From IMG/VR virus record IMGVR_UViG_3300024346_000012: a DNA stretch of 64,000 bases; one strand, 5' to 3'. The number at the start of each line of letters is the position of its first letter. The first letter of the stretch is position 1. Source of the stretch: a virus. Below the pieces are notes generated by a model. It had not been told where the DNA came from. It did no database searches and saw only the letters and a list, made by a program, of their open reading frames with translations. Shown piece by piece: positions 2,350 through 31,810 of the stretch. Made by a program: the position numbers and the translations under genes.

Positions 2350-2519
2350 AATTCAAGCTTCTCCATTATATTTATTCTTTGTTCTTCACTATAAGAAGAC
2401 CACTCAGTGATCTCCTGAGAAGTGCGTTTACACCCTATGCACGTACCAGTAAATGCATCAATTTTACATATCTGAGTACAAGGACTAGATGCTTTTACTA
2501 ATCCCAAGTGCCGTCCCAC
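2334..2519 (-). CDS. DUF1289 small Fe-S/Cys protein
   Basis: SPCTQICKID...CIGCKRTSQEITEW motif. Confidence 0.85.
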   Translation of the reverse strand: MGRHLGLVKASSPCTQICKIDAFTGTCIGCKRTSQEITEWSSYSEEQRINIMEKLELWQKK

Positions 2520-4024: not shown

Positions 4025-5095
4025 TCATACTAGAAACTCCGCTAAAGTTGCTTTTTGTTGTTTTGCTTCAAGCGCTTCAGGGCGCCAAATATCAGGATAC
4101 ATAGGCTTATCATTTTTATCCATCATATAATAACCTGAAGCATTTTTAAGACCTCGGCCAGAACGATCGAGATTATTTAAAAACCTGATATAGATGCATA
4201 AGGTATCTTCGTGTGCCACAGCATTTGTACCAAGGTTTTCTGTAAGATCTGCTAGTGCTCGATCGTGATATTCTACTTGACTCATCCCTTTTGGCTTTCG
4301 AAACATTTGTTCGATTGCTTGTCTAGCATTATTACCACAATATAAACTACTATTAGGATCTACATATTGTGGATGATACGTAGCAATGTCTGCAATGGCT
4401 TGTGCATATGGAAAGTTCCAACGACGAATCCCGTTGTCTATATTTTTCTGGTTAAGTCTATCAGTTAAACTCTTTTGTTCAAGCGGTGGATTACCTGCAT
4501 TATAGTTTTCTTTAAGATGTTCTGTCAGTTCGCCCATTAGTTCTAAACCAAAACTCGTTATATGTTCAGGAAGATTCATACCTTTCTTCGGAGTAGGGTT
4601 CTGGTTACCAATAGTAGAAAACATCTTTTTACCAGCTTTTTTCCACTGCTTCATAAGATTCGCCATCTCATCTGCAGTTTCATACATTCCGAAATGACTA
4701 ACTATGCTATGATGATATCCGTGCCATGGTTTGCCAGCATAAAATCCTGATCCAGTACTACGATGCGTATAATAAGCAAACACATATTCTCGAAGAGTCC
4801 ATTTATTTGTCACATATTTCTGAACTCGTTCTTGTACCTCTTTCGGCCTTTTCTTAAATACTACTTGATTAGTGCCGTGATTTAAATCTTGGTTTACGTT
4901 ATTGAATCCTTCATACGTTCTAGACACACAGTTGTAAGCAGGGATATTTTGCATTAACTCGTCGTTCACGTGTTCGTCAGCTTCAGGTCCAAGATAATCA
5001 GCATCGCCGATTAGGCAATTCTCTTCAAGCCATTTTGAACGAGGCCAGAAATAATCCACATAACAATCGTAATTTGGTCGTCTTTCTAATTCCAT
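4025..5095 (-). CDS. Putative hydroxymethyl-pyrimidine DNA modification enzyme (HMUDK helical / aGPT-Pplase1-like)
   Basis: Motifs YNCVSR, FPYAQAIADI, CGNNARQAI and EDTLCIYIRF parallel the F.NV.R, F.AYQ..D, GPGA..GI and N..CE..KY motifs remembered for the family; C-terminal clamp-like motif TLAEFL; nucleotide-modification context. Confidence 0.5.
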   Translation of the reverse strand: MELERRPNYDCYVDYFWPRSKWLEENCLIGDADYLGPEADEHVNDELMQNIPAYNCVSRTYEGFNNVNQDLNHGTNQVVFKKRPKEVQERVQKYVTNKWTLREYVFAYYTHRSTGSGFYAGKPWHGYHHSIVSHFGMYETADEMANLMKQWKKAGKKMFSTIGNQNPTPKKGMNLPEHITSFGLELMGELTEHLKENYNAGNPPLEQKSLTDRLNQKNIDNGIRRWNFPYAQAIADIATYHPQYVDPNSSLYCGNNARQAIEQMFRKPKGMSQVEYHDRALADLTENLGTNAVAHEDTLCIYIRFLNNLDRSGRGLKNASGYYMMDKNDKPMYPDIWRPEALEAKQQKATLAEFLV

Positions 5096-6030
5096 TACAT
5101 AAAACTTTCTAGTGTGTTTTCGCTCTCACCCCAATTCATACGGCGATAAAACATGGGATTAAGATGTACTGATTGGGGTCTTTCCATTTTATCTATAGCA
5201 TATTTTTCTTCATTCATATCATACCAAGCTTGAGGTGGTTTTACTAATTTCATTTCATATATTTTCATACAGCCTTCCATATCCCAAGCTGCTTTCATTC
5301 TTTCATCTCTTGAGCCCCAAAATGGTTGCTTCTTGTAATACCCGGTCTGAGGAAGTTTACGGCCTTCGAATTCAATTGGCCACGGCACCGCGTATTCTAC
5401 TTCAATGCCAAGACTCTTTCCGAAATCGCTATATGCTTCGACCATTTTATAGATGCTAGTTTCTACTCTGCATAAATGGTGACGTACATCAATATTGCCA
5501 AGAGATATGGTAACACCTTTATGATGCGGTTTGATATGAGACCTGATGTATGCAAAATCTTCATTGATTTGGCCAAACAATGTAGTACCATCTTGCTTGA
5601 CTACACTACTATTCTTCGGTGCATATGCGCACACGTGACTGTCACCGATTGCTAACCATTCGTGTGGTAAATCACTGCCTACAAGAGGCTTAGCTTCAGA
5701 AAGCTTCTCAGTTATTGCATCGCACCAATCTTTGTCAGTTACGTCTTTTCGCTTCTTTAACTGCGCACCGTAGTCAACTGGAGAGCCGTCCAGTACTGTT
5801 ATTGTTTCTGAAGCGAGCAAGTTATCGATCCAAACCTTAATAACTTCGTTAAACCCACCCATAAGATTAATAGTACCACCAAAATTAGCACCAGGCAAAA
5901 GATAAACATCTTTGTGCTTTCCATTCGTATGGTCAATGGGTACATTAAGATTTTCTGACCAAGTTCTGGCATAGCCATAACTGTGGCTTGATGTCTTCTT
6001 AGGTATTTTACTAAAGGTTCCGACTATCAT
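5095..6030 (-). CDS. SGNH/GDSL-fold hydrolase or acyltransferase
   Basis: Block I IGDSH, block III LGNID, block V SVHL; C-terminal TLESFM clamp-like motif. Confidence 0.65.
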   Translation of the reverse strand: MIVGTFSKIPKKTSSHSYGYARTWSENLNVPIDHTNGKHKDVYLLPGANFGGTINLMGGFNEVIKVWIDNLLASETITVLDGSPVDYGAQLKKRKDVTDKDWCDAITEKLSEAKPLVGSDLPHEWLAIGDSHVCAYAPKNSSVVKQDGTTLFGQINEDFAYIRSHIKPHHKGVTISLGNIDVRHHLCRVETSIYKMVEAYSDFGKSLGIEVEYAVPWPIEFEGRKLPQTGYYKKQPFWGSRDERMKAAWDMEGCMKIYEMKLVKPPQAWYDMNEEKYAIDKMERPQSVHLNPMFYRRMNWGESENTLESFM

Positions 6031-6467
6031 TCTATAAACTCATAATCAACACCAGCTTCACTAAAGAGTTCCGATGAATATGCAAACGACTCGATCCATC
6101 GTTGTGGGTATTCTGCTAGCGGCATAACAACTCTCTTAATTCCAACCTGAATAATACCCTTTGCGCAATCAGAGCAGACAGGTAATCCATGAACATAGAG
6201 AGTTGCACCGTCAAGTGATACACCATTATATGTAGCATTGTATATGCAGTTCATTTCAGCATGAACTACAAACTTATACTTAACATCTTTGTTTGCATAT
6301 CGATCAAAACTATCACTAATTCCTCTTGGAAATCCGTTGTAGCCTTGAGCAAGCACTTGTCCTTTTGATCCTACAGCAATCGCACCGATTTTAGATGAAG
6401 GATCTTTCGACCAATTAGCGACTCCAGATGCTAGATCAAGATATCGCTTATCCCATTTATTAACCAT
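6027..6467 (-). CDS. cd: dCMP deaminase
   Basis: HAEMN and PCxxC-type (LPVCSDC) zinc motifs, SKDPS, GYNGFPRG; start reset to MVNKWDKRY. Confidence 0.92.
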   Translation of the reverse strand: MVNKWDKRYLDLASGVANWSKDPSSKIGAIAVGSKGQVLAQGYNGFPRGISDSFDRYANKDVKYKFVVHAEMNCIYNATYNGVSLDGATLYVHGLPVCSDCAKGIIQVGIKRVVMPLAEYPQRWIESFAYSSELFSEAGVDYEFIE

Positions 6468-6515
6468 AATATAAACCTTTTTTTGTGTCGAGTAGGACTT
6501 TCGCCCTACTCGTTT

Positions 6516-6544
6516 ATTATACACTATTTTTTCATGATTGTAAA
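6516..6544 (-). promoter_or_regulatory. Sigma70-like promoter TTTACA-17-TATAAT
   Basis: Near-consensus hexamers overlapping the NCS1 stop, followed by a GAAA-tetraloop hairpin in the leader. Confidence 0.7.
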
Positions 6545-7915
6545 ATAAATAATTCCACCGAGTGCGGCACCAATTACCCATCCGAATCCTGATAAGAAGC
6601 CAAGAACTGGCAACCATACCGTTCCAAGAGAGAACGCTGCAGGCAATGCCCAAGCTGCGAGTGCTTTCTTGTTCCAACCATTGTCATAATAGTATTCACC
6701 ATCTTCAGATGCATTAAATAGTTCATCAATATCTAGTGCTTCTTTCTTGATCATATAGTGATCGACCATCATAATACCATAGATCGGAGCGAGTACAGCG
6801 CCAAAGGTATTTACAAAATTGAAGATACCCATTTGACTTACTACTGAAACCCAAAGACCACCAATTACGAGAGCAAATGCCGATGTAATCAAACCACCAA
6901 GTCTAAAGTCGATCTTAGCTGGTGCTAGATTGGCAAGATCATAAGCAGGTGGAATAAAGTTAGCCACCATATTAATGCCAACAGTCGCAAAGAAGAACGC
7001 GATAGCAGCTACAATAGTAAGTGGTAAAGATCCGACAGCTGCCACAATATCAGTAGGATTTGTCATTGGTTCACCGAAGACTACAATAGTACCAGCAGTA
7101 ACTACTAAAGCGATTAACGAAAAGAAAGCAATGTTTAATGGCAAGCCAAGTAGATTGCCCTTTCTCATTTCCTTTTGTGATTTTACAAATCTAGAGAAAT
7201 CACCGTAGTTAATTACAACAGCCGCAAAGTATGCAATCATTGTACCAACTACTGCGAACCACGCACTGAGTGCTGTTCCACTATAATCACCTACGCCTTG
7301 AAAGATAGTACCTACTTCTGTCATGAGTCCTGATCCGGCCGCATTCCAAATAAGAAGAGCAAGAACAATCATAACAGCATATACAAACACTCCCGCAAAA
7401 TTTAAGAACTTAGCGATAGTATCAATGCCTTTCATAAACAAGAAGATCTGAAAACCCCACACAATTAAGAACGATACCCAATCAATGCCAGTCATACCAA
7501 GCCACATACTCGATGGCTCAATTCCTAAAAGAGATTTAATTAAGAGAGACAAAGCTGTTGATGCAAAATAAGTTTGCGCGCCATACCAGAAGATGGCTAC
7601 AACAGCTCGTAATACAGCCGGAAAGTTAGCGCCCTTTACACCCATACTCGCTCGAGCCATAACTGGAAATGGAATGCCATGCTGTACAGAAGGTTTACCC
7701 ATTAGGTTTACCAGCACCATAACAAAAAGTCCTGCTACCAAAATAGCAGAAAAGACAGACCAGCCAGAAAGGCCATATGATAAGAATAGTGATGCTGCTA
7801 AAGTATATCCAAAGAGTGATTGAATATCGTTAGACCATACATTGAAAATTTCAAACCAACCCCATGTTTTTTTATCCTCGGTTACAGGGCCGAGGTCTTC
7901 ATTATGAAGTTCCAT
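6524..7915 (-). CDS. NCS1 family nucleobase:cation symporter (allantoin/uracil/cytosine permease)
   Basis: About 12 TM helices; HNEDLGP, GIPFPVMARASMG, WYGAQT, NYGDFSRF and INMVANF motifs. Confidence 0.92.
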   Translation of the reverse strand: MELHNEDLGPVTEDKKTWGWFEIFNVWSNDIQSLFGYTLAASLFLSYGLSGWSVFSAILVAGLFVMVLVNLMGKPSVQHGIPFPVMARASMGVKGANFPAVLRAVVAIFWYGAQTYFASTALSLLIKSLLGIEPSSMWLGMTGIDWVSFLIVWGFQIFLFMKGIDTIAKFLNFAGVFVYAVMIVLALLIWNAAGSGLMTEVGTIFQGVGDYSGTALSAWFAVVGTMIAYFAAVVINYGDFSRFVKSQKEMRKGNLLGLPLNIAFFSLIALVVTAGTIVVFGEPMTNPTDIVAAVGSLPLTIVAAIAFFFATVGINMVANFIPPAYDLANLAPAKIDFRLGGLITSAFALVIGGLWVSVVSQMGIFNFVNTFGAVLAPIYGIMMVDHYMIKKEALDIDELFNASEDGEYYYDNGWNKKALAAWALPAAFSLGTVWLPVLGFLSGFGWVIGAALGGIIYFTIMKK

Positions 7916-7958
7916 ATTAAGTTCCTTGTTTTGTTGTTGTGTAGTAGATATAGCAGTT

Positions 7959-8672
7959 TTAAACTACTATATCAAAATGCCGTTCATAAACGTGCAAATT
8001 TTGTACTTGCCACGTCATCAAGGCTGGTTCAATAGCCTCGCCACTGCCGCTTGCAGTGCGTTCAAAACGTCGGAAGTTATAATCGTCGCATAGTTTTTGT
8101 ACTACATGCATTTGCCATGCGTAATCATTTTTGTAACCAAAGACTACGTCATTAGAACGCATTTGGACTACAGCATGAAGCAGACCATCACGAATATAAT
8201 AAGTGACAGCGTTGGTACAGATGAAATCATTTTTGCCGTTATCTTTATAATCAAGCCAAATGCTAGGGCGATTATAAACCATGGTAGCACGTCTTCCATC
8301 AGGATTCTCTAGCAGTTCTGTTAATACATTATCGTACTGTTTATTGTAAGTATCACTGAAGATAAGTTTGCCATAGTTAGAGTTAATCTCACCATGTGAA
8401 TTGGAAGCATACTTCCATGCTGCTGGAGGATCACGATGTTCACCAAAAATGTCATTGATATTAGTCGACATGTTATGGTACCATAGCAGTTCTTGGTTAA
8501 TGTAATCCTGGTTGGGTACACCAAATATAGACTTTTCGGTTGCAATAAAAGATGCACCGATTAATTCAATAGTTTTAGCGCCAGTTTTATCTATAGTGAA
8601 TGCTTCATCTTTAAGTTCATTAATAAAGAATTGCCGTACGTCGTTTACGCTATTTGCTTTCATATCTATCAT
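7959..8672 (-). CDS. gp42: dCMP hydroxymethylase (T4 gp42 orthologue)
   Basis: End-to-end resemblance to T4 gp42: DKTG.KTIE.IGASF, ELLWY (catalytic Glu), GEINSNYG, DFICTN (catalytic Cys), MRSNDVVFGYKNDY (Asp specifying dCMP), LHVY.RHF. Confidence 0.9.
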   Translation of the reverse strand: MIDMKANSVNDVRQFFINELKDEAFTIDKTGAKTIELIGASFIATEKSIFGVPNQDYINQELLWYHNMSTNINDIFGEHRDPPAAWKYASNSHGEINSNYGKLIFSDTYNKQYDNVLTELLENPDGRRATMVYNRPSIWLDYKDNGKNDFICTNAVTYYIRDGLLHAVVQMRSNDVVFGYKNDYAWQMHVVQKLCDDYNFRRFERTASGSGEAIEPALMTWQVQNLHVYERHFDIVV

Positions 8673-8958
8673 CCATATCTTTACCTTCTTCGTATGCTAC
8701 ACGAAGAATCATAAGTTGCGTTAAAGCGTGATCGAGATGGAGAAGACCAGACTCAGGATCAGTATCTTCTTTATTCCAATATGCCATTAAGTGACGCTGA
8801 AGAGAAGAATAAGATCTACTCCACTCAGTCGTGTTTATGTCATCACGCCAGTTGTTTTCACCGTATTTCTTTGCACCAAATTCTAGTACTCTCGCTGCAG
8901 ATTCAATAGCGAGAGTTGGTACAAGGTGAATCGGGGGTTTGCCATTATCGTATTTCAT
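8650..8958 (-). CDS. DUF5664 / dATP-dGTP diphosphohydrolase-like protein
   Basis: KYD.GKP..HL.P, VL.FGAKKY..NNW, RHL.AY...E..DPESGL.HL.HA. Confidence 0.85.
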   Translation of the reverse strand: MKYDNGKPPIHLVPTLAIESAARVLEFGAKKYGENNWRDDINTTEWSRSYSSLQRHLMAYWNKEDTDPESGLLHLDHALTQLMILRVAYEEGKDMDDRYESK

Positions 8959-10151: not shown

Positions 10152-10634
10152 TTATCCAAATCTAGCTAAATACTGCGCTATTCGTCCAACAAAAGGTAGT
10201 AGCATAAGAGCCATAAGTAGGTTCATTCCAGTATGTGCCATTGCAATTCGTAGCGTATCACCTTTAGGCATTCCATCAGAGACAAATAAACCAGCCAGCC
10301 ATATTGTACCTGTCGTACCAATATTAGCACCAAGAACGCATGCAATAGCTGCAGGCAGCGGTAAAGCACCAGAAGCAACTAATGCAATAATAGCAGTAGT
10401 AGATAGTGAAGATGATTGCCATAGCAATGTCATGATAATTCCACCAAAAAACATATAGATCGGACTACCTAGAAACCAGTTAAGGTGTTCCATATTCCCC
10501 ATAGATTTCATTCCACCTGAGAATGTCTTAAGTCCAATATAAAAAATGACCAGCCCAACAAGGGCTGTTATCATCGGGTTTCCTAGATCCATTTTCTTCA
10601 CCTTTTTCCAAAGTTTTTCACCTTCATTTTTCAT
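10152..10634 (-). CDS. Na+/phosphate cotransporter, single-repeat (half-size) form
   Basis: QSSSLSTT and VLGANIGTT signature motifs of the Na_Pi_cotrans/NptA family; start at 10634 or 10592. Confidence 0.85.
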   Translation of the reverse strand: MKNEGEKLWKKVKKMDLGNPMITALVGLVIFYIGLKTFSGGMKSMGNMEHLNWFLGSPIYMFFGGIIMTLLWQSSSLSTTAIIALVASGALPLPAAIACVLGANIGTTGTIWLAGLFVSDGMPKGDTLRIAMAHTGMNLLMALMLLPFVGRIAQYLARFG

Positions 10635-11044
10635 TAGACGATACTCGGCAGATCGCCATGATTGCCTTCGTGTGATGGCCCTTGCCAACCACTTGGCTTT
10701 AGTAAATCGGGCAATCCAAAACGATTAGGGCGACCAGGCTTTACGCCTGGCTCTTTTGCCATATTAGCTTGGTATATAGCATCCCATGCTTTATTAGCAT
10801 CAACACCCATAATATCAAGAGTGCCGATAGCAAATACGCACATATCAATTAGACCATCAACGACTTCCTCTGCATCAGAATTATTAATAGCAGACAATGT
10901 CTCTTGGTATTCTTCACCGATCATAAGCATACGAAACATGAGATATTTCTGCATAAGATCTTTATTTTCTTTATTGGCTTCAAACCACTCACGTACGCCG
11001 AATTTGTTATGCATCATGTACATGTCATTAGCAAAATCACTCAT
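10634..11044 (-). CDS. MazG/PRA-PH-like NTP pyrophosphohydrolase (candidate dCTPase)
   Basis: EEYQE...EEVVDGLIDM...ANMAK...KP.GW motifs. Confidence 0.8.
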   Translation of the reverse strand: MSDFANDMYMMHNKFGVREWFEANKENKDLMQKYLMFRMLMIGEEYQETLSAINNSDAEEVVDGLIDMCVFAIGTLDIMGVDANKAWDAIYQANMAKEPGVKPGRPNRFGLPDLLKPSGWQGPSHEGNHGDLPSIV

Positions 11045-11070
11045 TTTATTCTCCATATTTAATATAATTT

Positions 11071-11099
11071 ATTCTACAATATTTTACAAGCATTGTACA
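11071..11099 (-). promoter_or_regulatory. Early promoter TGTACA-17-TAGAAT
   Basis: Same motif and spacing as other promoters. Confidence 0.65.
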
Positions 11100-11101
11100 T
11101 A

Positions 11102-11347: not shown

Positions 11348-12034
11348 TTACTCCTTTATAAAGTCTATGATACTAGGATATATTATACTTATGGCGTTCG
11401 CTATTTCTTTTGCCAGGTCCATGTGCTCTTGTTGTGTACCATTTGAGGATCTTAGATCAATATAGTGAATCCATGACCTAATAGTACCATTTACGTAGAG
11501 CCGAGAGACAGTATTTCCTTCTGGTAAAACTGCACGGGCTTGCTCTTTCGCAATACCGTTTGCTAGTGCCCAGCTGTATGCCGCCTTTGAGCAGGCGATC
11601 ACATCGGCTTGCATCTCAGCCCAACGTTCTTGTAGATCGGCATCATCTGTTACGACAGAGTTTTGACGATTTTTAGGATCTTGCATTCGAGCATCACGAA
11701 TTACAAAATTATCATTAAGATCACGGATGTCAGCATACCGCTGAGAAAACTCTTGAAACGAAAATGATCGGTGACGTAGAAACTGTCTAGCGATATCTCT
11801 TGTTGTTTCAATTTCCATGGTAACAGAAGCCATTTCAAACGGAGACCAATGCTTATGCTCAATAAGATAATTAAGAAGTTTTGCTGTAGTTTTTGTATTA
11901 CTTTGATTATTTGGATTTGATACTCGAGCGCAATACGCAATCAAATCTTGAATGTTATCTAAACCCATAATACCAAGATCACCTGAGTGAACATGTCTTA
12001 CTGGTTGAGTATATGATAGGAGACGAGTTTTCAT
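11348..12034 (-). CDS. thyX: Flavin-dependent thymidylate synthase
   Basis: HWSPFE, RQFLRHRSFSFQEFSQRY ThyX motif, EQARAVLP. Confidence 0.96.
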   Translation of the reverse strand: MKTRLLSYTQPVRHVHSGDLGIMGLDNIQDLIAYCARVSNPNNQSNTKTTAKLLNYLIEHKHWSPFEMASVTMEIETTRDIARQFLRHRSFSFQEFSQRYADIRDLNDNFVIRDARMQDPKNRQNSVVTDDADLQERWAEMQADVIACSKAAYSWALANGIAKEQARAVLPEGNTVSRLYVNGTIRSWIHYIDLRSSNGTQQEHMDLAKEIANAISIIYPSIIDFIKE

Positions 12035-13796: not shown

Positions 13797-14842
13797 TATG
13801 CTTCTTCCACAATCTTATCCATATCTACTAGAGATTGATGACCAATACTGTATTGTTTTTTCAAGAAGTCTTTAAAATCTGTATTAGCAAAGATTGGACT
13901 CCAGAAGGATTCATCAAGAGTGTCAGCGTGCCGAACCTTATGTCCAATTTCTCCAGTACTTTGATCAACCGCAGCATACCAGCCATTGGAAGGCTTAGTG
14001 ACATAATTACCAGCAAGAGCACAATCGAGCAAGCCAGAGTACTTACGGACACCACCATCCCAAGAGACAGTGATAGGAATTTTAGATTTTTCTTTAACAT
14101 AACGGCTTTTCTCCACGTTAATTACGAAATGATAACCTTGTATTTCTGTACCCTTTTTATCTTGTTGACGACCTAAGATCCAAATATTATCTGCAGAATA
14201 ATAAATTCCGGTGCCACCACCTACAATGGCTTTTGGAAACAAGCCAATTTCCATATACGTATGGTTAACAGCAATCAGAGGAATATTCTTCATTGTAAGA
14301 TATGGTGTCGACATACGAAATAAACCTTTTAAAGCTTTCGCACGTGACATATCTGCTACTGATTTTTCATTGATTGCATCATCTAGCTCTTTCTTAGAAG
14401 CTAAGTTACCAATAGAATCAATTACAACAATTACTTTGTCATCTCTCGAAATTTCTTCTAATTGAGAAATAAGATCAAATTTAAGCTCTTCTACATTTGT
14501 AATTGGTGTATGTAAAATGCGGGTTGTATCAATATCAAACTGCTCGAAATAAGCTTGAGGAGAACCAAACTCTGAATCATAAAATAGCATAACAGCTTCT
14601 GGGTGCTTTTTCAGATACGATGCTGCCATCAGTAAAGCAAACGATGTTTTAAAATGTTTTGAAGGCCCAGCCAGTACTGTAAGTCCAGGTGCCAGTCCTC
14701 CATCGACAGAACCTGAAAGTGCTACGTTAATCATAGGTACATCAGTTGGTGTCATATCTACTTCTGTAAAGAATTTTGAGTCCGCAAGAACTTCAGAAGT
14801 TTTGATTTTACTGTTTTTCTTCAGTTTGTCCATAATCGACAT
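13796..14842 (-). CDS. uvsX: RecA-like recombinase UvsX
   Basis: AGPSKHFKT Walker A, FYDSEFG, DSIGNLASKKE. Confidence 0.95.
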   Translation of the reverse strand: MSIMDKLKKNSKIKTSEVLADSKFFTEVDMTPTDVPMINVALSGSVDGGLAPGLTVLAGPSKHFKTSFALLMAASYLKKHPEAVMLFYDSEFGSPQAYFEQFDIDTTRILHTPITNVEELKFDLISQLEEISRDDKVIVVIDSIGNLASKKELDDAINEKSVADMSRAKALKGLFRMSTPYLTMKNIPLIAVNHTYMEIGLFPKAIVGGGTGIYYSADNIWILGRQQDKKGTEIQGYHFVINVEKSRYVKEKSKIPITVSWDGGVRKYSGLLDCALAGNYVTKPSNGWYAAVDQSTGEIGHKVRHADTLDESFWSPIFANTDFKDFLKKQYSIGHQSLVDMDKIVEEA

Positions 14843-15656
14843 GTTGTTCTATTTCCCTTTGGTCTAATTCATATTGAGATCTGTATTCATTATTAATTCT
14901 AACACATTCTCCTAGTAATGTAAACCCTTTATCTAAATTAAATAACGCGCTTGTATCCTTTGGAAAGCAAGCTCCTCCGTATCCTCGCTTATTATCAAGC
15001 CCAGGAACTGCAGAATGAGATCTACCTATTCTACTATCCGATGTTATAGCATTCACTATCTTATTATAAGCTGCTTCGTTATTTTCTACTACATCATATA
15101 GCTGATTAAAAAACAGAACTTTCATAGCTAAGAAAGAGTTAATTCCATATTTTACAAAACTAGCGTCTACCGCAGACATTCGATGTACTGGACAAGGTCT
15201 ACAAAGGCTATATTCTTTATAGTAGAATTCTAGGTTGTCGATAAATCCGTCGTTTCCGCCAAAGATATGCTTATCAGGATTTATGAAATCATCTATAGCA
15301 TTCTTTTCTGTTAAAAACTCTGGGTTATATACGATTCTAGTACCGCCCGAACCTACTACGAGTTTTTTAATTATATCAGGAGTTACCGTAGATTTGATAA
15401 CAATTATTCCGGACATTCGTTCTTTTAGCTCTTTAACTGTATCTACCAGAATGGTGGAATCTATAGAACCGTCTTTATTCATAGGAGTTGGTACACAAAC
15501 AAACGTTATATTTTCTTCTAGATTAACGTCCTTTAAACTGTTATAGCAGGTTTTACCGTATTTAGGATCAACAATTTGCATTCTTACTTTAGGAGTTCTA
15601 AATCCATACTCTACAGCTCTACCCACAAAACCATAGCCAACTATAGTTATTTTCAT
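14808..15656 (-). CDS. ugd: UDP-glucose/GDP-mannose 6-dehydrogenase family (short form)
   Basis: GYGFVG, CVPTP, IKSTV, NPEFL, K...N, GYGGACFPKD. Confidence 0.88.
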   Translation of the reverse strand: MKITIVGYGFVGRAVEYGFRTPKVRMQIVDPKYGKTCYNSLKDVNLEENITFVCVPTPMNKDGSIDSTILVDTVKELKERMSGIIVIKSTVTPDIIKKLVVGSGGTRIVYNPEFLTEKNAIDDFINPDKHIFGGNDGFIDNLEFYYKEYSLCRPCPVHRMSAVDASFVKYGINSFLAMKVLFFNQLYDVVENNEAAYNKIVNAITSDSRIGRSHSAVPGLDNKRGYGGACFPKDTSALFNLDKGFTLLGECVRINNEYRSQYELDQREIEQHVDYGQTEEKQ

Positions 15657-16090
15657 GTAAGACCTCCAATGTCTTTTTTAAGTTCTTCTCCATACACTCT
15701 ATCGCGTAAATCGCTAGTGGAGAATCTATGGTCTCTTTTATTAAAATAAATTTCTATTCCTCGGGCAGAGCAAGTAGCTCTTCCAGTAAATTTTCCGTCT
15801 TTATATTCTTGACCTATAATTCTAACATCTATATCAAACATTTTTAAAATATCTTCTATGTCTGTTTCGGTCTCATAGGGTATAATTTCATTTACATATT
15901 TTACAGCTTGTAGTTGCATCCATCTTTCTACTAGTGTTTGAACTGGTGTGTTTTTTTCAGATCTTTCCGCGGCAGGATTTACTTGTAAACCACAGATTAG
16001 ATAATCACATTGATTTTTTGCTTCTCTTAGCATAGCGATATGACCTGCGTGTAACAAATCAAAAGTGCTAAATGTTATTCCTATAGCCAT
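15653..16090 (-). CDS. tagD: Glycerol-3-phosphate cytidylyltransferase-like (TagD family)
   Basis: TFDLLHAGH HxGH motif, ER...L..VKYV.EII, RDHRFSTS. Confidence 0.85.
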   Translation of the reverse strand: MAIGITFSTFDLLHAGHIAMLREAKNQCDYLICGLQVNPAAERSEKNTPVQTLVERWMQLQAVKYVNEIIPYETETDIEDILKMFDIDVRIIGQEYKDGKFTGRATCSARGIEIYFNKRDHRFSTSDLRDRVYGEELKKDIGGLT

Positions 16091-16123
16091 AGCTCTTTTA
16101 AGACCTTCCATGTTGCTTGCCAA

Positions 16124-16300
16124 TTAGTCAATTGATATTTCCTCATCTTCTTCAAACTGAACAAACAATTTTAGTGTTCTCATATCGTCTTGAAGCTGTA
16201 CTTTCACCTCACCTACTCGGTTTTTAGTGTATGAGCGACCATTGTTATCAATAACTTCTACTCTATTTACATCTAAAAACAGCTTATCAAGTACCATCAT
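16124..16300 (-). CDS. Hypothetical protein
   Basis: RVEVID..GR.Y...LQDD.RTLK.F motif. Confidence 0.55.
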   Translation of the reverse strand: MMVLDKLFLDVNRVEVIDNNGRSYTKNRVGEVKVQLQDDMRTLKLFVQFEEDEEISID

Positions 16301-16655
16301 GCTCAATCTCATCTTGGTGAAATCCAACACTTTCTCGTTCAATATCGTTATGATTAAACTCGGCCCAATATAGTTCATATGCTATACCATCTTCAACACA
16401 CTCAAATTGATGATAAAGACCAGGTTTAACTTTATGATAATCGCCTTCTTCTAGAATAGTAACATCAACTAAATCGTAGTCGCGTTGCCATGTACGAATA
16501 AGCATTCTGCCTGACTCTACATAGAACCCATTCCACTTGTAGCGGTGCAAATGCTTCGAGCATACACCGCCTTCAAACATTTCAATACGGTGAAACTCTA
16601 AAGCGCCATTTGCTTCAATCAGTTCTGTCGTACCCCATACTTTTCCAGCTTTCAT
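16287..16655 (-). CDS. Cupin-fold protein (sugar isomerase-like)
   Basis: KVWG, CSKHLH..K.N.F.V.SG, PG.YHQF cupin motifs. Confidence 0.8.
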   Translation of the reverse strand: MKAGKVWGTTELIEANGALEFHRIEMFEGGVCSKHLHRYKWNGFYVESGRMLIRTWQRDYDLVDVTILEEGDYHKVKPGLYHQFECVEDGIAYELYWAEFNHNDIERESVGFHQDEIEHDGT

Positions 16656-17320
16656 TTTTCATTCCACTTCTTTGCATCTTCTGGTGTGTTGATTTCTACT
16701 CCGTTAAACTCACATGGAAATACACCGATATCCCATCCATTTTTTAACCAGCGGAGTTGTTCTAGTTCTTCAATACGCTCTTCACGTGTGCCTGTCAAAC
16801 CAGGATACATTTCTAACGCATTCCTCTTGTATCCATAAATTCCCAAGTGCCAATCACCATACCCAGTCATGCCTCTACCAAACCATAAACACTTATCTGC
16901 AGCTCTTACTAGTTTAACTGTATTAGGATCATTCTGTTGTTCCTCTGGCATCATAGCACACATAGTAGTAACAGGATAGTTTTTTAAATGCCAAATCGTC
17001 TTTTCGATCATTTCCTCTGTCACATCAGGCATATCACCTTGAACATTAATATACTGGTCATACTTACGAATTAGATTTATTGCGCCAGCACATCTTTCAG
17101 TTCCATTTTGGTAATCAGTATTATCTATCCTACAATCATTATCATTAAATAGATGCGCAATAGACATATCGTCTGTTAGTACATATGTGTCGTAGCCAGT
17201 TGCTACACACTTATCATATACTCGTTTAACCATAGGAACACCATCTAAAAGTGTTAGTGGCTTACCAGGAAAACGTGTGCTGCCGTATCTAGCCGGTATA
17301 AGAATAGCGGTGGATGTCAT
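16652..17320 (-). CDS. kdsB: CMP-KDO synthetase (3-deoxy-manno-octulosonate cytidylyltransferase)
   Basis: IPARYGSTRFPGKPL, GTERC, INVQGD, HLGIYGY, LEQLRWL. Confidence 0.92.
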   Translation of the reverse strand: MTSTAILIPARYGSTRFPGKPLTLLDGVPMVKRVYDKCVATGYDTYVLTDDMSIAHLFNDNDCRIDNTDYQNGTERCAGAINLIRKYDQYINVQGDMPDVTEEMIEKTIWHLKNYPVTTMCAMMPEEQQNDPNTVKLVRAADKCLWFGRGMTGYGDWHLGIYGYKRNALEMYPGLTGTREERIEELEQLRWLKNGWDIGVFPCEFNGVEINTPEDAKKWNEK

Positions 17321-18062
17321 CTACGGTCCTTTCAAAATCTTCTAGTTTTAACATATTAGGACCATCGCTTGGTGCTAGATCAGGTTCAGGATGGACTTCC
17401 AAGAAAAAAGATTTAATCCCAAGAGCAGCCCCGCTACGAGCCAGCCCAGGCACGTAATCCCTATTACCGCCTGAACTATTGCCCTGTCCTCCGGGTTTTT
17501 GGGCAGAGTGCGTACAATCGAAAACAATATCATGTTTAAAATTGTCGAGCATATACATAAGCCCAGTATAGTCAACGACAAGAGTGTTATAGCCAAAACT
17601 AGTTCCTCGCTCAGTTATCCAAACGTCTTTAGCGCCTTCAGTCTTACTTATCACTCCTTTCATATCCCAAGGGGCCATGAACTGACCTTTTTTTATATTT
17701 ACTATCTTGTCTGTGGCACAGGCTGCTTGGATTAAATCAGTCTGCCTGCACAAAAATGCAGGTATCTGATAGACATCAACAGCATCTTTAAACTGTCGTT
17801 CAATGCGCCTAACTTGTACGTGGTCGTGCACATCAGTAAGTGTCTTTATACCTAACTCTGTTTTTATTGCAAGAAAGTCAGTAAGTGTTGCTTCTAGGCC
17901 CGTGCCACGTTTGCCTTGCATACTTGAGCGGTTTGCTTTATCGAAGCTTGCTTTGAAATAATACTCAAAGCCGTACTTATCGCACACTCGTTTACACTCT
18001 CGTGCAATATCTGCTGACTCAGCTAACGACTCATGTTGACAAGGTCCTGCTATAATTCTCAC
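17289..18062 (-). CDS. kdsA: KDO-8-phosphate synthase
   Basis: IAGPC, KASFDKANRSS, QIPAFLCRQTDL, NIKKGQF, ERGTSFGY, FDCTHS, EVHP.P..A.SDG. Confidence 0.95.
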   Translation of the reverse strand: MRIIAGPCQHESLAESADIARECKRVCDKYGFEYYFKASFDKANRSSMQGKRGTGLEATLTDFLAIKTELGIKTLTDVHDHVQVRRIERQFKDAVDVYQIPAFLCRQTDLIQAACATDKIVNIKKGQFMAPWDMKGVISKTEGAKDVWITERGTSFGYNTLVVDYTGLMYMLDNFKHDIVFDCTHSAQKPGGQGNSSGGNRDYVPGLARSGAALGIKSFFLEVHPEPDLAPSDGPNMLKLEDFERTVDDIHRYSYTG

Positions 18063-18250: not shown

Positions 18251-19197
18251 TATTGTATAACTCCATTTTTATATGCGTATTCAAGCGCATTATTAGCTTC
18301 GGTATCTAATGGCCTATTTTCGTATATATTAGCAGTATCTTTATCAAGCTGTCTTACTAGATCAACTATCTGGCTTGCAGTAATAGGATATTGCTTTTCA
18401 ATAGCGTTTCCAGCAATAGAGATCATCATCTTATAAATCATTCTATATCTTCCAGTGCCATCAATGTTAGCGATGCTCATATACTCACGTAGAAGGGTTT
18501 TATTTACAAACGGGCAATCGCTATAGCTTGACCACACATAACTAGTATTATCTAGTTTAGATTTTCTGTAATCAATAATTTGTTCTTTCCAAGCATCTGG
18601 TAATCTGTCTAAAAAGTCTTTACTATTTTGTTTTTCGCTGTATTCCCATTTAGCCATAAGCGCTGATGGATCTATATCTACTCCATCGTCATTAGAGAAT
18701 ATGAAGTTATTAGCTTTATTGTAAGCTGCAGGCACATAATACATACGAGATAGGTCTTTAGTCTGTTTATCTCCAAGAGAATTAATCTCTGAGTTTAGAG
18801 CAAACCAAAAGTGTTTAATTCTATCCGCTTCAAGCCTTTCTGTAAGAGGAAATACAATACGAAACTTAGGTAGAGTATCATTGCTGCTAGCAGTAGAATA
18901 AACTATAAATCTATAGTTTCCAAATTTACCTATAAGATCACTCTCTAAGTCTCCTTGTGGCTCATAGTCGTCAACATCTACAGCAGCCCAACCTCCCCAA
19001 TCTAGAACATTTTTATTAGCGCGTGTGGTATTCTTAACATAAGAAGAAGGAGAGATTAGCTCAGCATCTAGCTTATCATTTAATGGCCGTTCGGATAACT
19101 TGTATAGAAACTTCTTAAACTTATCCCATGAGTCAAAGTCTAGACGCCTATGAGTTTTATTATCATATCTATTTTTAAAAACAGTAAGAGAGTACAT
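18250..19197 (-). CDS. Archaeo-eukaryotic primase (AEP)/primase-polymerase with PriCT-like C-terminus
   Basis: AAVDVDD (DxD), YSTASS...KFRIVFPL, D..TKDLSRMYYVP; coupled to DNA polymerase. Confidence 0.65.
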   Translation of the reverse strand: MYSLTVFKNRYDNKTHRRLDFDSWDKFKKFLYKLSERPLNDKLDAELISPSSYVKNTTRANKNVLDWGGWAAVDVDDYEPQGDLESDLIGKFGNYRFIVYSTASSNDTLPKFRIVFPLTERLEADRIKHFWFALNSEINSLGDKQTKDLSRMYYVPAAYNKANNFIFSNDDGVDIDPSALMAKWEYSEKQNSKDFLDRLPDAWKEQIIDYRKSKLDNTSYVWSSYSDCPFVNKTLLREYMSIANIDGTGRYRMIYKMMISIAGNAIEKQYPITASQIVDLVRQLDKDTANIYENRPLDTEANNALEYAYKNGVIQ

Positions 19198-21779: not shown

Positions 21780-21801
21780 GGGTTCTCCTATCAACAATAC
21801 C

Positions 21802-21843
21802 ATTCTAACACGAAAAAGGGGAGTTGTAAACCCCCCTTTTTAA
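21802..21843 (-). promoter_or_regulatory. Promoter TTTACA-17-TAGAAT for gp43 overlapping a terminator hairpin
   Basis: AAAAAGGGG...CCCCTTTTT inverted repeat contains the -35 hexamer. Confidence 0.65.
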
Positions 21844-26762: not shown

Positions 26763-26993
26763 TTATTCAGACTCAGCTGCCTGATCTTGTTGGAATGTTT
26801 CACACATCTGGATCATTTGTACACCTTGATCTCGTAACTGACCGAGTGTAGATAGTTCTTCACCCTTTACAGCTCCACGCTGTACCATTGTATCAATTAC
26901 TGCAATAGTTGAACGACAGATACGATTTGCTAGATCGTATGTCGGTGCATGACTTTCATGCGCTAGTTTTACTTTATCTTCTTTAGACATCAT
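26763..26993 (-). CDS. Hypothetical protein
   Basis: Coupled to gp45; start reset to MMSKED. Confidence 0.6.
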   Translation of the reverse strand: MMSKEDKVKLAHESHAPTYDLANRICRSTIAVIDTMVQRGAVKGEELSTLGQLRDQGVQMIQMCETFQQDQAAESE

Positions 26994-27667
26994 TGTTCTC
27001 CATATGTAGATGTTTTTTCGAGAGCAACCCAATAAGTAACATTGGTATTTTGCCCTTTAAATTCTGATATTAGTTTGGATGATACTCTTACATCATATGT
27101 ATCGGTAATCATTTTTAAGTTAGCTATATTTAAAATAAATCTAAAGTCTTCTTCTTTATAACCTCCATCAACTTCAATTGAGTATTCATTGGCTGTAGCG
27201 TTTTCTGGGTCGAATACGGACAGTTTGATGGCTCCACTAGATGGTTCAATACAGAACTGACTAGTTCCAAGAGCAGCTGAAGCTCTTTTTAAGGAGTTAA
27301 GCGTATTTTCATCTAGGGTAAACCATACATCTTCATCGGGCATGTTAATAGGCTTAGTGGGCTGAGTTAGCATCTCAATATCTGCGTAGTAGTACCTTAG
27401 GTTTTCTCTGCCGCTTTGGCTTTTAATGACCATATGATTTTCTTCAAACTTGACATTTGGGTTATCAACCAATCCTAACACATTTAGAAACTCTTGTAAA
27501 TCATAAATTCCTATACAGTTTTCAAATGTTTCGGGTAACTCCGCTTTGGCTAGAATGTTTTTGGCCGGAGATATAGTCATTAAGCTATTTCCGGGTTTGA
27601 TTACTATATTACTATTGATTGCAGCGAAGTTCTTAAGAACGCTGACGGTATTTCCACTTATTTCCAT
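26990..27667 (-). CDS. gp45: Sliding clamp (gp45)
   Basis: LKNFA.IN, IYDL.EFL, YWVALE; synteny. Confidence 0.93.
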   Translation of the reverse strand: MEISGNTVSVLKNFAAINSNIVIKPGNSLMTISPAKNILAKAELPETFENCIGIYDLQEFLNVLGLVDNPNVKFEENHMVIKSQSGRENLRYYYADIEMLTQPTKPINMPDEDVWFTLDENTLNSLKRASAALGTSQFCIEPSSGAIKLSVFDPENATANEYSIEVDGGYKEEDFRFILNIANLKMITDTYDVRVSSKLISEFKGQNTNVTYWVALEKTSTYGEQ

Positions 27668-31784: not shown

Positions 31785-31810
31785 AACAAAATCCTTCATG
31801 TAATGTTTAT

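What the first reader, a model, noticed from the sequence alone, without database searches (positions are those of the whole stretch)
4025..8958. Candidate new DNA hypermodification pathway: dCMP hydroxymethylase plus HMUDK/aGPT-Pplase1-like and SGNH proteins
Seen: one cluster encodes a close T4 gp42 orthologue with catalytic Glu/Cys and the dCMP-specifying Asp (KNDY), a dCMP deaminase, a DUF5664 pyrophosphatase, a nucleobase importer, an SGNH-fold enzyme and a 356-aa helical protein with motifs recalling aGPT-Pplase1/HMUDK. Known: gp42 makes hmdCMP, which T4 glucosylates via alpha/beta-gt; HMUDK-type enzymes are characterised in hmU phages, where they (pyro)phosphorylate the hydroxymethyl group in DNA before group transfer. 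No T4-like glucosyltransferase or dUMP hydroxymethylase is visible, and ThyX supplies ordinary T. Inference: hmC is activated and decorated by an hmU-style kinase route, with the SGNH protein adding or removing an acyl group, giving an undescribed cytosine modification. Alternative: hmdCMP is deaminated to hmdUMP.
Basis: partly seen in the sequence, partly recalled or inferred. Interest (0 to 1): 0.88.

Follow-up and report, generated by a model that had tools for sequence, protein, structure and literature searches.

The report
Kinase-less hydroxymethylcytosine DNA hypermodification cassette
A marine T4-like phage makes T4's hydroxymethylcytosine, but where T4 has sugar-adding enzymes it has a conserved, clamp-tethered pair (an esterase/acyltransferase-fold enzyme and a relative of the enzymes that graft amino acids onto thymine), so its DNA probably carries a cytosine decoration not yet described.

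Summary
On the minus strand, 4025-8958 encodes a MazG-like DUF5664 pyrophosphatase, a T4 gp42-type dCMP hydroxymethylase, an NCS1 nucleobase permease, a dCMP deaminase, an SGNH-fold protein (P0002) and a 356-aa helical protein (P0001).

P0001 has the fold of amino acid:DNA transferases (AADT/aGPT-Pplase). Its best solved match is PaMx11 gp46, and it keeps a Glu-x3-Cys motif like the catalytic pair of that enzyme. It is not a kinase, and no 5-hmU-DNA-kinase-like P-loop protein is in the 64 kb.

P0002 and P0001 are translationally coupled here and fused into one protein in seven other metagenomic clusters. In 85 related viral loci they sit beside gp42-type hydroxymethylases, all with the hydroxymethylase signature.

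Both end in the same C-terminal tail as the phage DNA polymerase. A complex model supports binding of the P0001 tail to the gp45 clamp.

Best reading: replication-coupled, kinase-free hypermodification of 5-hmC in DNA. Acyl activation by the SGNH enzyme followed by group transfer is inferred, and the product is unknown.

This window is a rare variant that lacks the PLP enzyme present in 65 of 69 related loci that hold both genes.

The scan has flagged this cassette before on other DNA. I found no paper describing it.

The parts
8650..8958 (-). MazG-like all-alpha NTP pyrophosphatase (DUF5664/dGTP_diPhyd_N), 102 aa. Candidate dCTP-depleting enzyme, analogous to T4 gp56. It overlaps the hydroxymethylase gene.
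   Evidence: Pfam PF18909 E 1.5e-29, phrog_801. The same gene precedes gp42 in relatives. The role is inferred.
7959..8672 (-). dCMP hydroxymethylase (T4 gp42 orthologue), 237 aa
   Evidence: E 1.5e-64 to 1b49. Asp at the ThyA N177, D169 and L143 equivalents, plus the catalytic Cys. Only 28% identical to the RB69 5hoC synthase, which has Asn at the D169 position.
6524..7915 (-). NCS1 nucleobase permease, 463 aa. A host-derived insertion between gp42 and the deaminase.
   Evidence: Pfam Transp_cyt_pur E 5.5e-79. 72-77% identical to marine alphaproteobacterial genes. Absent at this position in relatives.
6027..6467 (-). dCMP deaminase, 146 aa from ATG 6467. Its stop overlaps the P0002 start (ATGA).
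   Evidence: Pfam dCMP_cyt_deam_1 E 7.8e-19, phrog_174. Start choice. Overlap read.
5095..6030 (-). P0002: N-terminal alpha/beta domain plus SGNH-fold catalytic domain, 311 aa. Proposed acyl-enzyme partner.
   Evidence: AF2 pLDDT 89. SGNH matches Z about 10 over residues 120-303. Invariant G129-D130-S131-H132, G148 and H289, nearly invariant N179. phrog_13881.
4025..5095 (-). P0001: AADT/aGPT-Pplase-fold protein, 356 aa, with Glu296-x3-Cys300. Proposed C5 group transferase acting on hmC in DNA.
   Evidence: AF2 pLDDT 85. BFVD 'Amino acid:DNA transferase domain' TM 0.78, E 3.7e-13. PDB 8z2n PUGT Z 9.9. E296 invariant and C300 near-invariant in 68 sequences. 1-nt overlap with P0002 (TAATG).
4028..4048 (-). 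C-terminal tail of P0001 (TLAEFLV), a sliding-clamp-binding-like motif
   Evidence: Same tail type as the polymerase. Complex model with gp45: score 0.66 against best control 0.20, interface residues 347-356.
5098..5118 (-). C-terminal tail of P0002 (TLESFM), a sliding-clamp-binding-like motif
   Evidence: Conserved as [ST]L-x-x-F-[FM] in most myophage homologues and absent in the podovirus homologue.
19197..21803 (-). B-family DNA polymerase (gp43) ending in TLEEFFM
   Evidence: 55% identical to Phage C48C1 pol. Tail read.
26990..27667 (-). gp45 sliding clamp, the proposed docking platform
   Evidence: Pfam gp45-slide_C E 1.3e-14. Complex model.
10634..11056 (-). MazG-like NTP pyrophosphohydrolase, a second candidate for dCTP depletion
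   Evidence: phrog_671 E 6.4e-22. Present in 46 of 85 related loci.
11348..12034 (-). ThyX flavin-dependent thymidylate synthase. It supplies ordinary dTMP from the deaminase's dUMP.
   Evidence: phrog_85 E 1.5e-74.
14808..18062 (-). Sugar-nucleotide gene block: UDP-Glc/GDP-Man dehydrogenase-like, CTP_transf_like, cupin, CMP-Kdo-synthetase-like, Kdo8P-synthase-like. Link to the cassette is possible but unproven.
   Evidence: Pfam hits. In some relatives these genes flank gp42-cd-SGNH-(PLP)-AADT-like on both sides.

Best explanation
The region is the core of a post-replicative, kinase-free pathway that hypermodifies 5-hydroxymethylcytosine.

Step 1, well supported by sequence: the gp42 orthologue turns dCMP into 5-hm-dCMP. 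The small MazG-like pyrophosphatases probably deplete dCTP. The deaminase plus ThyX make ordinary dTMP, as cd plus td do in T4. The polymerase then lays hmC into DNA.

Step 2, inferred: two translationally coupled enzymes ride on the gp45 sliding clamp through polymerase-like C-terminal tails and act on hmC in the new duplex. P0002 (SGNH fold, Ser131/His289 with Gly148/Asn179) forms an acyl-enzyme and esterifies the 5-CH2OH group. That gives a carboxylate leaving group in place of the phosphate that 5-HMUDK installs on hmU. P0001 (AADT fold) flips the base. Cys300 adds to C6, Glu296 assists, the ester leaves, and a nucleophile (an amino acid or amine, identity unknown) adds to the exocyclic methylene. 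The product would be a 5-(X-methyl)cytosine.

This window is the two-enzyme variant without the PLP-dependent tailoring enzyme found in most relatives, so its end product should be the untailored adduct.

My odds: the pair modifies hmC-derived DNA, about 0.65. This particular order and chemistry, about 0.3.
For: - The hydroxymethylase is 49% identical to T4 gp42 (E 1.5e-64) with the catalytic Cys and Glu. It and all 63 homologues in related loci carry Asp at the ThyA N177, D169 and L143 equivalents. PMC13326640 uses these residues to separate dCMP hydroxymethylases from 5hoC synthases and thymidylate synthases.
- P0001 fold: BFVD TM 0.78, E 3.7e-13 to 'Amino acid:DNA transferase domain' proteins, followed by 5-hmdU-DNA-kinase helical domains and Pplase1. 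The best solved chain is the 5-PmdU glycinyltransferase 8z2n, Z 9.9, rmsd 4.1 over 210 residues.
- Glu296 is invariant and Cys300 near-invariant across 68 diverse homologues. The Glu-x3-Cys spacing is that of PaMx11 gp46 Glu243/Cys247. Glu and Cys are essential in M6 gp51 and ViI gp247.
- P0002: SGNH fold with the Ser, Gly, Asn and His blocks conserved.
- Functional link between the two: 1-nt and 4-nt gene overlaps. Seven clusters of 639-790 aa proteins are SGNH-N/AADT-like-C fusions. The pair also occurs in a T7-like podovirus contig.
- Context: at least 547 relatives of P0001 in IMG/VR. Across 85 loci: AADT-like 85, SGNH 69, gp42 63, deaminase 51.
- No conserved P-loop kinase. Walker A motifs in the window occur only in DnaB, the clamp loader, the gp46-like ATPase and terminase, plus a non-conserved chance match in P0002.
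- Tails: among 114 minus-strand ORFs only the polymerase, P0001, P0002 and one 203-aa ORF end in the L-x-x-[FWY]-[FLMIY] tail.
- Complex model of gp45 with the P0001 tail: score 0.66 against best control 0.20. That mark was reached by 51 of 78 solved complexes and 2 of 108 mismatched pairs. Runs agree in at least 88% of contacts and partner pLDDT is at least 53.
Against: - No chemistry is shown. The product, the nucleophile, the acyl donor and the order of the two enzymes are all unknown.
- P0001 gives no Pfam hit. Only 1 of 68 family members touches ADDT, at E 1e-3. Sequence profiles do not reach PUGT. Equivalence of Glu296/Cys300 with Glu243/Cys247 rests on motif spacing and on the end points of the structural alignment, not on a residue-level superposition.
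- The SGNH block V lacks the usual Asp (Q-S-V-H).
- SGNH enzymes are more often hydrolases than cytoplasmic acyltransferases, and no precedent exists for acyl activation of a DNA base.
- The dNMP kinase needed for hm-dCDP was not found in the 64 kb. The rest of the genome is not held.
- A clamp-peptide complex has been solved for RB69 (from my own knowledge), so the complex score may reflect likeness to it.
- Nearby sugar-nucleotide genes leave room for a glycan.
Confidence: 0.55

Rival explanations
1. The SGNH enzyme is the only chemical actor. P0001 serves mainly as the DNA-binding, base-flipping module, as the HMUDK_hel domain does for the P-loop kinase in 5-HMUDK. The final modification is then a simple O-acyl-hmC, for example 5-acetoxymethylcytosine. 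Alternatively the order is reversed: P0001 transfers a group directly to hmC and the SGNH enzyme trims or acylates the adduct.
For: The fusion architecture of a catalytic domain plus a helical HhH-like domain mirrors 5-HMUDK. 5-hmdU DNA kinase helical domains are among the structural matches. The Aeromonas 44RR ORF233c C-terminal half gives only a weak HMUDK_hel match, E 0.0036. Lee et al. describe methylene formation as dehydration 'possibly assisted' by phosphate, so unactivated hmC could be a substrate.
Against: Invariant Glu296 and near-invariant Cys300, with the AADT spacing, argue that P0001 is itself catalytic. Most relatives add a PLP enzyme, which implies an amino-acid-like adduct rather than a plain acyl ester.
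Confidence: 0.2
2. The target is a glycan. The neighbouring sugar-nucleotide genes (Kdo8P synthase, CMP-Kdo synthetase, CTP_transf_like, UDP-Glc dehydrogenase, epimerase) supply an activated sugar acid that ends up on hmC. P0002 and P0001 would act as an unconventional transferase pair or as O-acyl tailoring enzymes of that glycan.
For: The sugar genes lie between the polymerase and uvsX, the slot that holds 42 and beta-gt in T4 and the arabinosylation cluster in RB69. In several relatives they flank the cassette on both sides. SGNH enzymes commonly act on sugar O-acetyl groups.
Against: Only 17-18 of 85 loci carry these genes, and many cassettes have none. No glycosyltransferase family was found in the window. 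The P0001 fold and motif are those of C5-methylene transferases. Marine T4-like phages may carry such genes as host-metabolism genes.
Confidence: 0.1
3. hm-dCMP is deaminated by the adjacent dCMP deaminase to hm-dUMP, hmU enters DNA, and the AADT-like enzyme modifies thymine positions as in M6 and ViI.
For: The deaminase is translationally coupled to the pair. All characterised AADTs act on hmU-derived DNA.
Against: The deaminase plus ThyX is the ordinary T4-like dTMP route. All 64 associated TS homologues are dCMP-specific hydroxymethylases and none is dUMP-type. No 5-HMUDK is present. The phage keeps its own thymidylate synthase. The deaminase is missing from or distant in many cassettes.
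Confidence: 0.07
4. The pair does not modify phage DNA at all. It might act on free nucleotides, RNA or a host metabolite, or serve as an anti-defence enzyme on host DNA.
For: No direct evidence for a DNA substrate. The 5hmC carbamoyltransferase also accepts hm-dCTP.
Against: HhH-glycosylase/AADT fold. Clamp-binding tails shared with the polymerase. Strict linkage to gp42.
Confidence: 0.05

Closest known systems
Thymidine hypermodification pathways of phages M6, ViI, PaMx11, PhiW-14 and SP10 (dUMP hydroxymethylase, 5-HMUDK P-loop kinase, clade 2 aGPT-Pplase/AADT, tailoring enzymes)
   Same: A TS-family hydroxymethylase supplies a 5-hydroxymethyl pyrimidine. P0001 is an HhH-glycosylase-like enzyme with the AADT fold and a Glu-x3-Cys motif. 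Most relatives of the cassette add a PLP-dependent enzyme. Action on polymer DNA is the likely mode.
   Different: The base is cytosine, since the hydroxymethylase is dCMP-specific. There is no P-loop DNA kinase. An SGNH-fold enzyme is the obligate, often fused, partner instead. P0001 is too diverged for the Pfam ADDT, aGPT-Pplase or HMUDK_hel models. Both enzymes carry clamp-binding tails. This window lacks the PLP enzyme.
T4 hmC glucosylation (gp42, gp56, gp1, alpha-gt, beta-gt)
   Same: An orthologous gp42 (49% identity). A T4-like replication module (gp43, gp45, gp41, UvsX, UvsY, UvsW). A dCMP deaminase. A follow-up enzyme gene downstream of gene 42.
   Different: No glucosyltransferase. 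The follow-up enzymes have SGNH and AADT folds. A beta-gt-like N-domain in P0002, suggested by earlier scan notes, could not be confirmed here (hhalign probability 1.4%, local motif only).
5-hydroxymethylcytosine carbamoyltransferase (MetaGPA, PMC8670742)
   Same: A non-sugar group placed on the hydroxyl of hmC, encoded beside a dCMP hydroxymethylase, a PRA-PH/MazG pyrophosphatase and a dCMP deaminase in uncultured phages.
   Different: That is a single TobZ-like carbamoyltransferase. It has no SGNH or AADT-like proteins and its chemistry is different.
RB69/DLP3 arabinosyl-5-hydroxycytosine pathway (PMC13326640)
   Same: A TS homologue next to sugar-nucleotide genes between gp43 and uvsX in a T4-like genome.
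   Different: The RB69 enzyme is a flavin-dependent 5hoC synthase with Asn at the ThyA D169 position. The window's enzyme has Asp there and is only 28% identical to it. RB69 uses glycosyltransferases.
Aeromonas phage 44RR2.8t ORF233c and homologues in phages 31, 25 and phiAS4 (phrog_17781)
   Same: The N-terminal 330 aa are homologous to P0002, 26-30% identity. These cultured phages carry genes 42 and 56 but no glucosyltransferase (PMC2993671). A transporter gene lies next to it, as here.
   Different: It is a 795-aa fusion. Its C-terminal half is not detectably homologous to P0001 and gives only a sub-threshold HMUDK_hel match.

Membership tests
T4 gp42-type dCMP hydroxymethylase (TS superfamily) | Full-length sequence similarity to solved gp42 | tested here: met
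   E 1.5e-64, residues 8-236 against 7-225 of 1b49
T4 gp42-type dCMP hydroxymethylase (TS superfamily) | Catalytic Cys, and Asp in place of ThyA Asn177 (dCMP specificity) | tested here: met
   FICTN, and KNDY aligned to T4 RNDY and to the D179N mutant 6l18. Asp in 64 of 64 cassette homologues.
T4 gp42-type dCMP hydroxymethylase (TS superfamily) | Asp kept at ThyA D169 (Asn marks 5hoC synthases), and an acidic residue at the L143 equivalent (hydroxymethyl rather than methyl product) | tested here: met
   The criterion comes from PMC13326640. SND and NDF in the window protein, 64 of 64 in relatives. RB69 gp48 has SQN.
T4 gp42-type dCMP hydroxymethylase (TS superfamily) | Enzymatic formation of 5-hm-dCMP | not testable with these tools
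   Needs an assay
Amino acid:DNA transferase / clade 2 aGPT-Pplase (Pfam ADDT PF18724) | Match to the family HMM | tested here: not met
   P0001 has no Pfam family at E 0.01. 1 of 68 family members hits ADDT at E 1e-3.
Amino acid:DNA transferase / clade 2 aGPT-Pplase (Pfam ADDT PF18724) | HhH-glycosylase-like helical fold shared with solved PUGT (PaMx11 gp46) | tested here: met
   8z2n Z 9.9, rmsd 4.1, 210 residues. It ranks top, above AGOG and DUF2419. BFVD AADT-domain proteins TM 0.78. Z is middling for a helical protein, so this shows fold-level kinship only.
Amino acid:DNA transferase / clade 2 aGPT-Pplase (Pfam ADDT PF18724) | Essential Cys with a nearby essential Glu | tested here: inconclusive
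   E296 is invariant and C300 near-invariant, in the motif E-D-x-x-C. The spacing equals gp46 E243-T-I-L-C247, and the alignment end points (311 to 258) fit the same offset. A residue-level superposition was not available.
Amino acid:DNA transferase / clade 2 aGPT-Pplase (Pfam ADDT PF18724) | Works with a 5-HMUDK P-loop kinase on phosphorylated hmU DNA | tested here: not met
   No such kinase in the window or in the conserved cassette of 85 loci. The associated hydroxymethylases are dCMP-specific.
[quoted passage not shown] | P-loop kinase domain | tested here: not met
   P0001 has no Walker A. The P0002 match AYSDFGKS is not conserved, since the family consensus has Asp at the Lys position.
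SGNH/GDSL hydrolase-acyltransferase superfamily | SGNH alpha/beta fold | tested here: met
   Residues 120-303. All 50 best chains of 48,161 are SGNH/GDSL, Z 8.1-10.6. Foldseek probability 1.0. Pfam SGNH/Lipase_GDSL hits are marginal, 5 and 2 of 51 members.
SGNH/GDSL hydrolase-acyltransferase superfamily | Block I Ser, block II Gly, block III Asn, block V His | tested here: met
   G129-D130-S131-H132, G148, D181 and H289 invariant, G178 and N179 nearly invariant in 51 sequences. The block V Asp is replaced (Q-S-V-H), so a Ser-His dyad is likely.
T4-type sliding-clamp clients (C-terminal gp45-binding tail) | Extreme C-terminal hydrophobic tail like that of the cognate polymerase | tested here: met
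   Polymerase TLEEFFM, P0001 TLAEFLV, P0002 TLESFM. Only 4 of 114 minus-strand ORFs carry the loose motif.
T4-type sliding-clamp clients (C-terminal gp45-binding tail) | Physical binding to gp45 | not testable with these tools
   The model supports binding but does not show it: score 0.66 against best control 0.20.
T4 alpha/beta-glucosyltransferases | GT-B fold or a Pfam glucosyltransferase match somewhere in the locus | tested here: not met
   No GT family among the scanned ORFs. The P0002 family profile against T4 beta-gt gave hhalign probability 1.4%. The rest of the genome is unseen.

The most novel reading that the evidence does not exclude
Phages have a second, phosphate-free way to activate a hydroxymethyl pyrimidine in DNA. 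A clamp-tethered SGNH acyl-enzyme esterifies 5-hmC just behind the replication fork. A diverged AADT-type Cys/Glu enzyme then displaces the ester with an amino acid or amine. The result is a family of 5-(aminoalkyl or aminoacyl)methylcytosines that are widespread in marine T4-like phages and unknown to chemistry. The PLP-less variant in this window would yield the simplest member.
Probability: 0.3. Interest if true: 0.88.

Novelty: new variant of a known kind. Interest (0 to 1): 0.74.

Why it matters
Every characterised non-sugar hypermodification built by AADT-type enzymes sits on thymine and begins with a DNA kinase. This would be a cytosine counterpart that uses a different activating enzyme and is coupled to the replisome. 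It would be a new DNA base and new nucleic-acid enzymology, with possible use in hmC-specific labelling or sequencing chemistry.

It would also answer an open question from Petrov et al. 2010: what T4 relatives that have gene 42 but no glucosyltransferase do with their hmC.

The cassette is common. P0001 has at least 547 relatives in IMG/VR, many in abundant marine myophages. It therefore bears on how a large share of ocean phages evade restriction and CRISPR, and on how well their DNA is recovered by standard sequencing.

Tried and rejected
- Megablast of the region and tblastn of P0001 against 50,697 phage records: no match.
- phmmer of P0001 and a profile of its family against PDB sequences: nothing relevant.
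- hhalign of the 68-sequence family against PaMx11 gp46: no signal.
- hhalign of the P0001 family against 44RR ORF233c, hmmsearch with the family model, and jackhmmer from the 44RR C-terminal half: no link. I therefore do not claim that the Aeromonas proteins carry a P0001-like domain. They give only a sub-threshold HMUDK_hel hit.
- Beta-glucosyltransferase-like N-domain of P0002, a lead from earlier scan notes: hhalign probability 1.4%, with a local S-I-N-F-F-G-G-like motif only. The Atlas feature search on residues 1-118 gave nothing.
- PLP enzyme family against PDB sequences: no hit. Its PLP assignment rests on a sub-threshold PALP match (31 bits against a cut-off of 35) and an invariant Lys in a G-S-K-V-R-G-G motif.
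- The whole genome is not held, so gp1-type dNMP kinase, gp56, alc, denB and any glycosyltransferase outside the window could not be sought.
- The promoter and terminator scan gave no more promoter-like sites than shuffles.
- The Walker-A-like AYSDFGKS in P0002 was rejected as chance, because the Lys is not conserved.

Full report
**What the window is.** All genes in the window run on the minus strand, and GC is about 0.37. The window holds a T4-type replication and structural module: DNA polymerase, primase, DnaB/gp41-like helicase, UvsX, UvsY, UvsW, gp44-like clamp loader, gp45 clamp, gp46-like ATPase, gp23, portal, gp15 and terminase. The polymerase is 55% identical to that of Phage C48C1 and about 45% to cyanomyophage polymerases. 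This is therefore an uncultured marine T4-like myophage. No whole genome is held.

**Checking the observation.**
- The TS homologue at 7959-8672 matches solved T4 dCMP hydroxymethylase at E 1.5e-64.
- A 2026 paper shows that some 'gp42-like' enzymes, such as RB69 gp48, are 5-hydroxycytosine synthases. They are diagnosed by Asn at the ThyA Asp169 position (PMC13326640), so I tested this.
- The window protein reads S-N-D...K-N-D-Y and N-D-F-I-C. That gives Asp at the D169, N177 and L143 equivalents.
- It is only 28% identical to RB69 gp48, which reads S-Q-N.
- All 63 TS homologues next to related cassettes carry the same three Asp residues and the Cys. The enzyme is a dCMP hydroxymethylase.
- The deaminase most likely starts at ATG 6467, not at the TTG inside the permease gene.

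**P0001 (4025-5095).** There is no Pfam, PHROG or PDB sequence hit, and only 15 close metagenomic clusters.
- The AlphaFold model built on their alignment is confident (pLDDT 85, pTM 0.81) and all-helical.
- Against predicted viral structures, the top matches are 'Amino acid:DNA transferase domain' proteins (TM 0.78/0.73, E 3.7e-13). Next come 5-hmdU DNA kinase helical domains and Pplase1 proteins.
- Against solved structures, the best chain is 8z2n, the 5-phosphomethyl-dU glycinyltransferase gp46/PUGT of PaMx11 (Z 9.9). Below it are archaeal AGOG and DUF2419 HhH-type enzymes.
- A profile search of 1.8 billion representatives found 149 relatives. Across 68 diverse ones, Glu296 is invariant and Cys300 near-invariant, in an E-D-x-x-C motif.
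- PaMx11 gp46 reads E243-T-I-L-C247. Cys247 is its proposed C6 nucleophile and Glu243 a metal ligand. The Cys and neighbouring Glu are essential in M6 gp51 and ViI gp247.
- The end points of the structural alignment (model 311 to chain 258) fit the same offset. I could not see the residue-level alignment.
- P0001 is thus a diverged member of the AADT/aGPT-Pplase fold superfamily that looks catalytically competent. It is not a kinase.

**P0002 (5095-6030).** The model is confident (pLDDT 89). Residues 120-303 are an SGNH domain with invariant GDS(H), Gly148 and His289 and nearly invariant Asn179. The N-terminal 115 residues form a separate alpha/beta domain that I could not classify.

**The two proteins work together.**
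- cd, P0002 and P0001 are translationally coupled through ATGA and TAATG overlaps.
- Seven independent clusters of 639-790 aa proteins have a P0002-like N-terminal half and a P0001-like C-terminal half.
- The pair also occurs, with a 70-aa ORF between them, in a T7-like podovirus contig.
- IMG/VR holds at least 547 relatives of P0001. Across 85 loci I count AADT-like 85, SGNH 69, gp42 63 and dCMP deaminase 51, usually as gp42-(cd)-SGNH-X-AADT-like or gp42-AADT-like-X-SGNH-UvsX.
- X is a conserved 295-aa protein with a sub-threshold PALP match and an invariant Lys in G-S-K-V-R-G-G. This is the look of a fold-type II PLP enzyme.
- X is present in 65 of 69 loci that hold both partners. It is absent from the window (tblastn and hmmsearch find nothing) and from L002/L003 and L004, the loci that carry P0001's close homologues.
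- The window is therefore a rarer two-enzyme variant.
- No P-loop kinase belongs to the cassette.

**Replisome coupling.** Earlier notes of this scan pointed to a shared tail, and I checked it.
- The polymerase ends in TLEEFFM, P0001 in TLAEFLV and P0002 in TLESFM.
- Only these three and one 203-aa ORF, out of 114 minus-strand ORFs, end in the loose motif.
- Most myophage homologues keep the tail. The podovirus homologues lack it.
- A complex model of gp45 with residues 318-356 of P0001 supports binding but does not show it. The score is 0.66 against a best control of 0.20, a mark reached by 51 of 78 solved complexes and 2 of 108 mismatched pairs. The runs agree in at least 88% of contacts, and partner pLDDT is at least 53.
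- The contacts are residues 347-356 of P0001 against the clamp's interdomain pocket.
- From my own knowledge, an RB69 clamp-peptide complex has been solved, so the pass may reflect likeness to it.

**Mechanism.** Sequence and fold show a dCMP hydroxymethylase, an SGNH enzyme with an intact Ser/His/oxyanion set, and an AADT-fold enzyme with the Glu/Cys motif. They also show genetic fusion and linkage and polymerase-like tails. The rest is inferred:
- hmC in DNA is esterified by the SGNH acyl-enzyme.
- The AADT-like enzyme then adds Cys300 to C6, expels the carboxylate and accepts a nucleophile at the exocyclic methylene.
- The ester would play the part that phosphate plays in 5-PmdU.

The order could be the reverse, or P0001 could be mainly a base-flipping partner (rival 1).

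**Sugar genes.** Five genes sit between the polymerase and uvsX at 14808-18062: Kdo8P-synthase-like, CMP-Kdo-synthetase-like, cupin, CTP_transf_like and UDP-Glc/GDP-Man dehydrogenase-like. An epimerase-family gene lies at 30430-31182. T4 keeps 42 and beta-gt in that slot, and RB69 its arabinosylation cluster. In some relatives these genes, plus an epimerase, PMM and once a PEP carboxykinase, flank the cassette on both sides. They occur in only 17-18 of 85 loci, and no glycosyltransferase was found, so I keep a glycan as a minority rival.

**Comparison with the literature.**
- Petrov et al. 2010 noted that Aeromonas phages 44RR, 31 and 25 have genes 42 and 56 but no glucosyltransferase, and left their modification open.
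- These phages carry a 795-aa protein whose N-terminal half is homologous to P0002. It lies next to a Na+/solute symporter. Its C-terminal half is not demonstrably P0001-like.
- Searches of the held literature found AADT enzymes only in thymidine pathways. The known non-sugar hmC derivative there is 5-carbamoyloxymethylcytosine.
- I found no description of this cassette.
- Earlier agents of this scan reached similar readings on other genomes. That is not independent evidence.

**Verdict.** It is a new variant of a known kind of system, and experiments can test it directly.

Noticed in passing
window 6524-7915 (-): The NCS1 nucleobase permease is 72-77% identical to genes of marine Alphaproteobacteria (Parvibaculaceae, Rhodospirillaceae, Paracoccaceae and Sulfitobacter MAGs) and 66-67% to Pelagibacteraceae. 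It looks like a recent host-derived insertion between gp42 and cd, and it hints at an alphaproteobacterial host. Aeromonas phage 44RR also has a transporter (SSF family) beside its SGNH fusion.
   Followed up: partly
window 14808-18062 (-) and 30430-31182 (-): Sugar-nucleotide genes: UDP-Glc/GDP-Man dehydrogenase-like, CTP_transf_like, cupin, CTP_transf_3 (CMP-Kdo/CMP-sialate synthetase type), DAHP_synth_1 (Kdo8P synthase type) and an NAD epimerase/dehydratase. Relatives add PMM and, in L044, a PEP carboxykinase next to the Kdo8P synthase.
   Followed up: partly
window 31188-31799 (-): A 203-aa ORF with no Pfam family ends in DLTKFMGN. It is the only other minus-strand ORF with a clamp-tail-like C-terminus, so it may be another gp45 client.
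   Followed up: no
window 10152-10688 (-): A 178-aa ORF with a Na+/Pi cotransporter domain (PF02690, E 2.5e-15), far shorter than cellular transporters, directly downstream of MazG. In relatives a conserved, family-less 307-319 aa protein occupies this position.
   Followed up: no
L005/L006 (IMG metagenome contigs), 10988-11263: The abundant relative (its SGNH protein is seen on 127 contigs) encodes ribosomal protein S21 between the cassette and uvsX, as reported for pelagimyophages (from my own knowledge). It also encodes a Cpn10 co-chaperonin.
   Followed up: no
L001 (Aeromonas phage 44RR2.8t) 5992-8379: ORF233c (795 aa) is an SGNH domain plus about 450 residues whose only hint is HMUDK_hel at E 0.0036. 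It is a cultured-phage handle for experiments on this enzyme class.
   Followed up: partly
window 55788-57623 (-) and 57627-62837 (-): A 611-aa protein with collagen triple-helix repeats (five stretches) next to a 1736-aa ORF. They are probably fibre or baseplate components.
   Followed up: no
window 2498-2983 (-) and 23770-24264 (-): A SleB-type cell-wall hydrolase (PF07486) and an HSP20 small heat-shock protein. Both recur in the relative L002.
   Followed up: no
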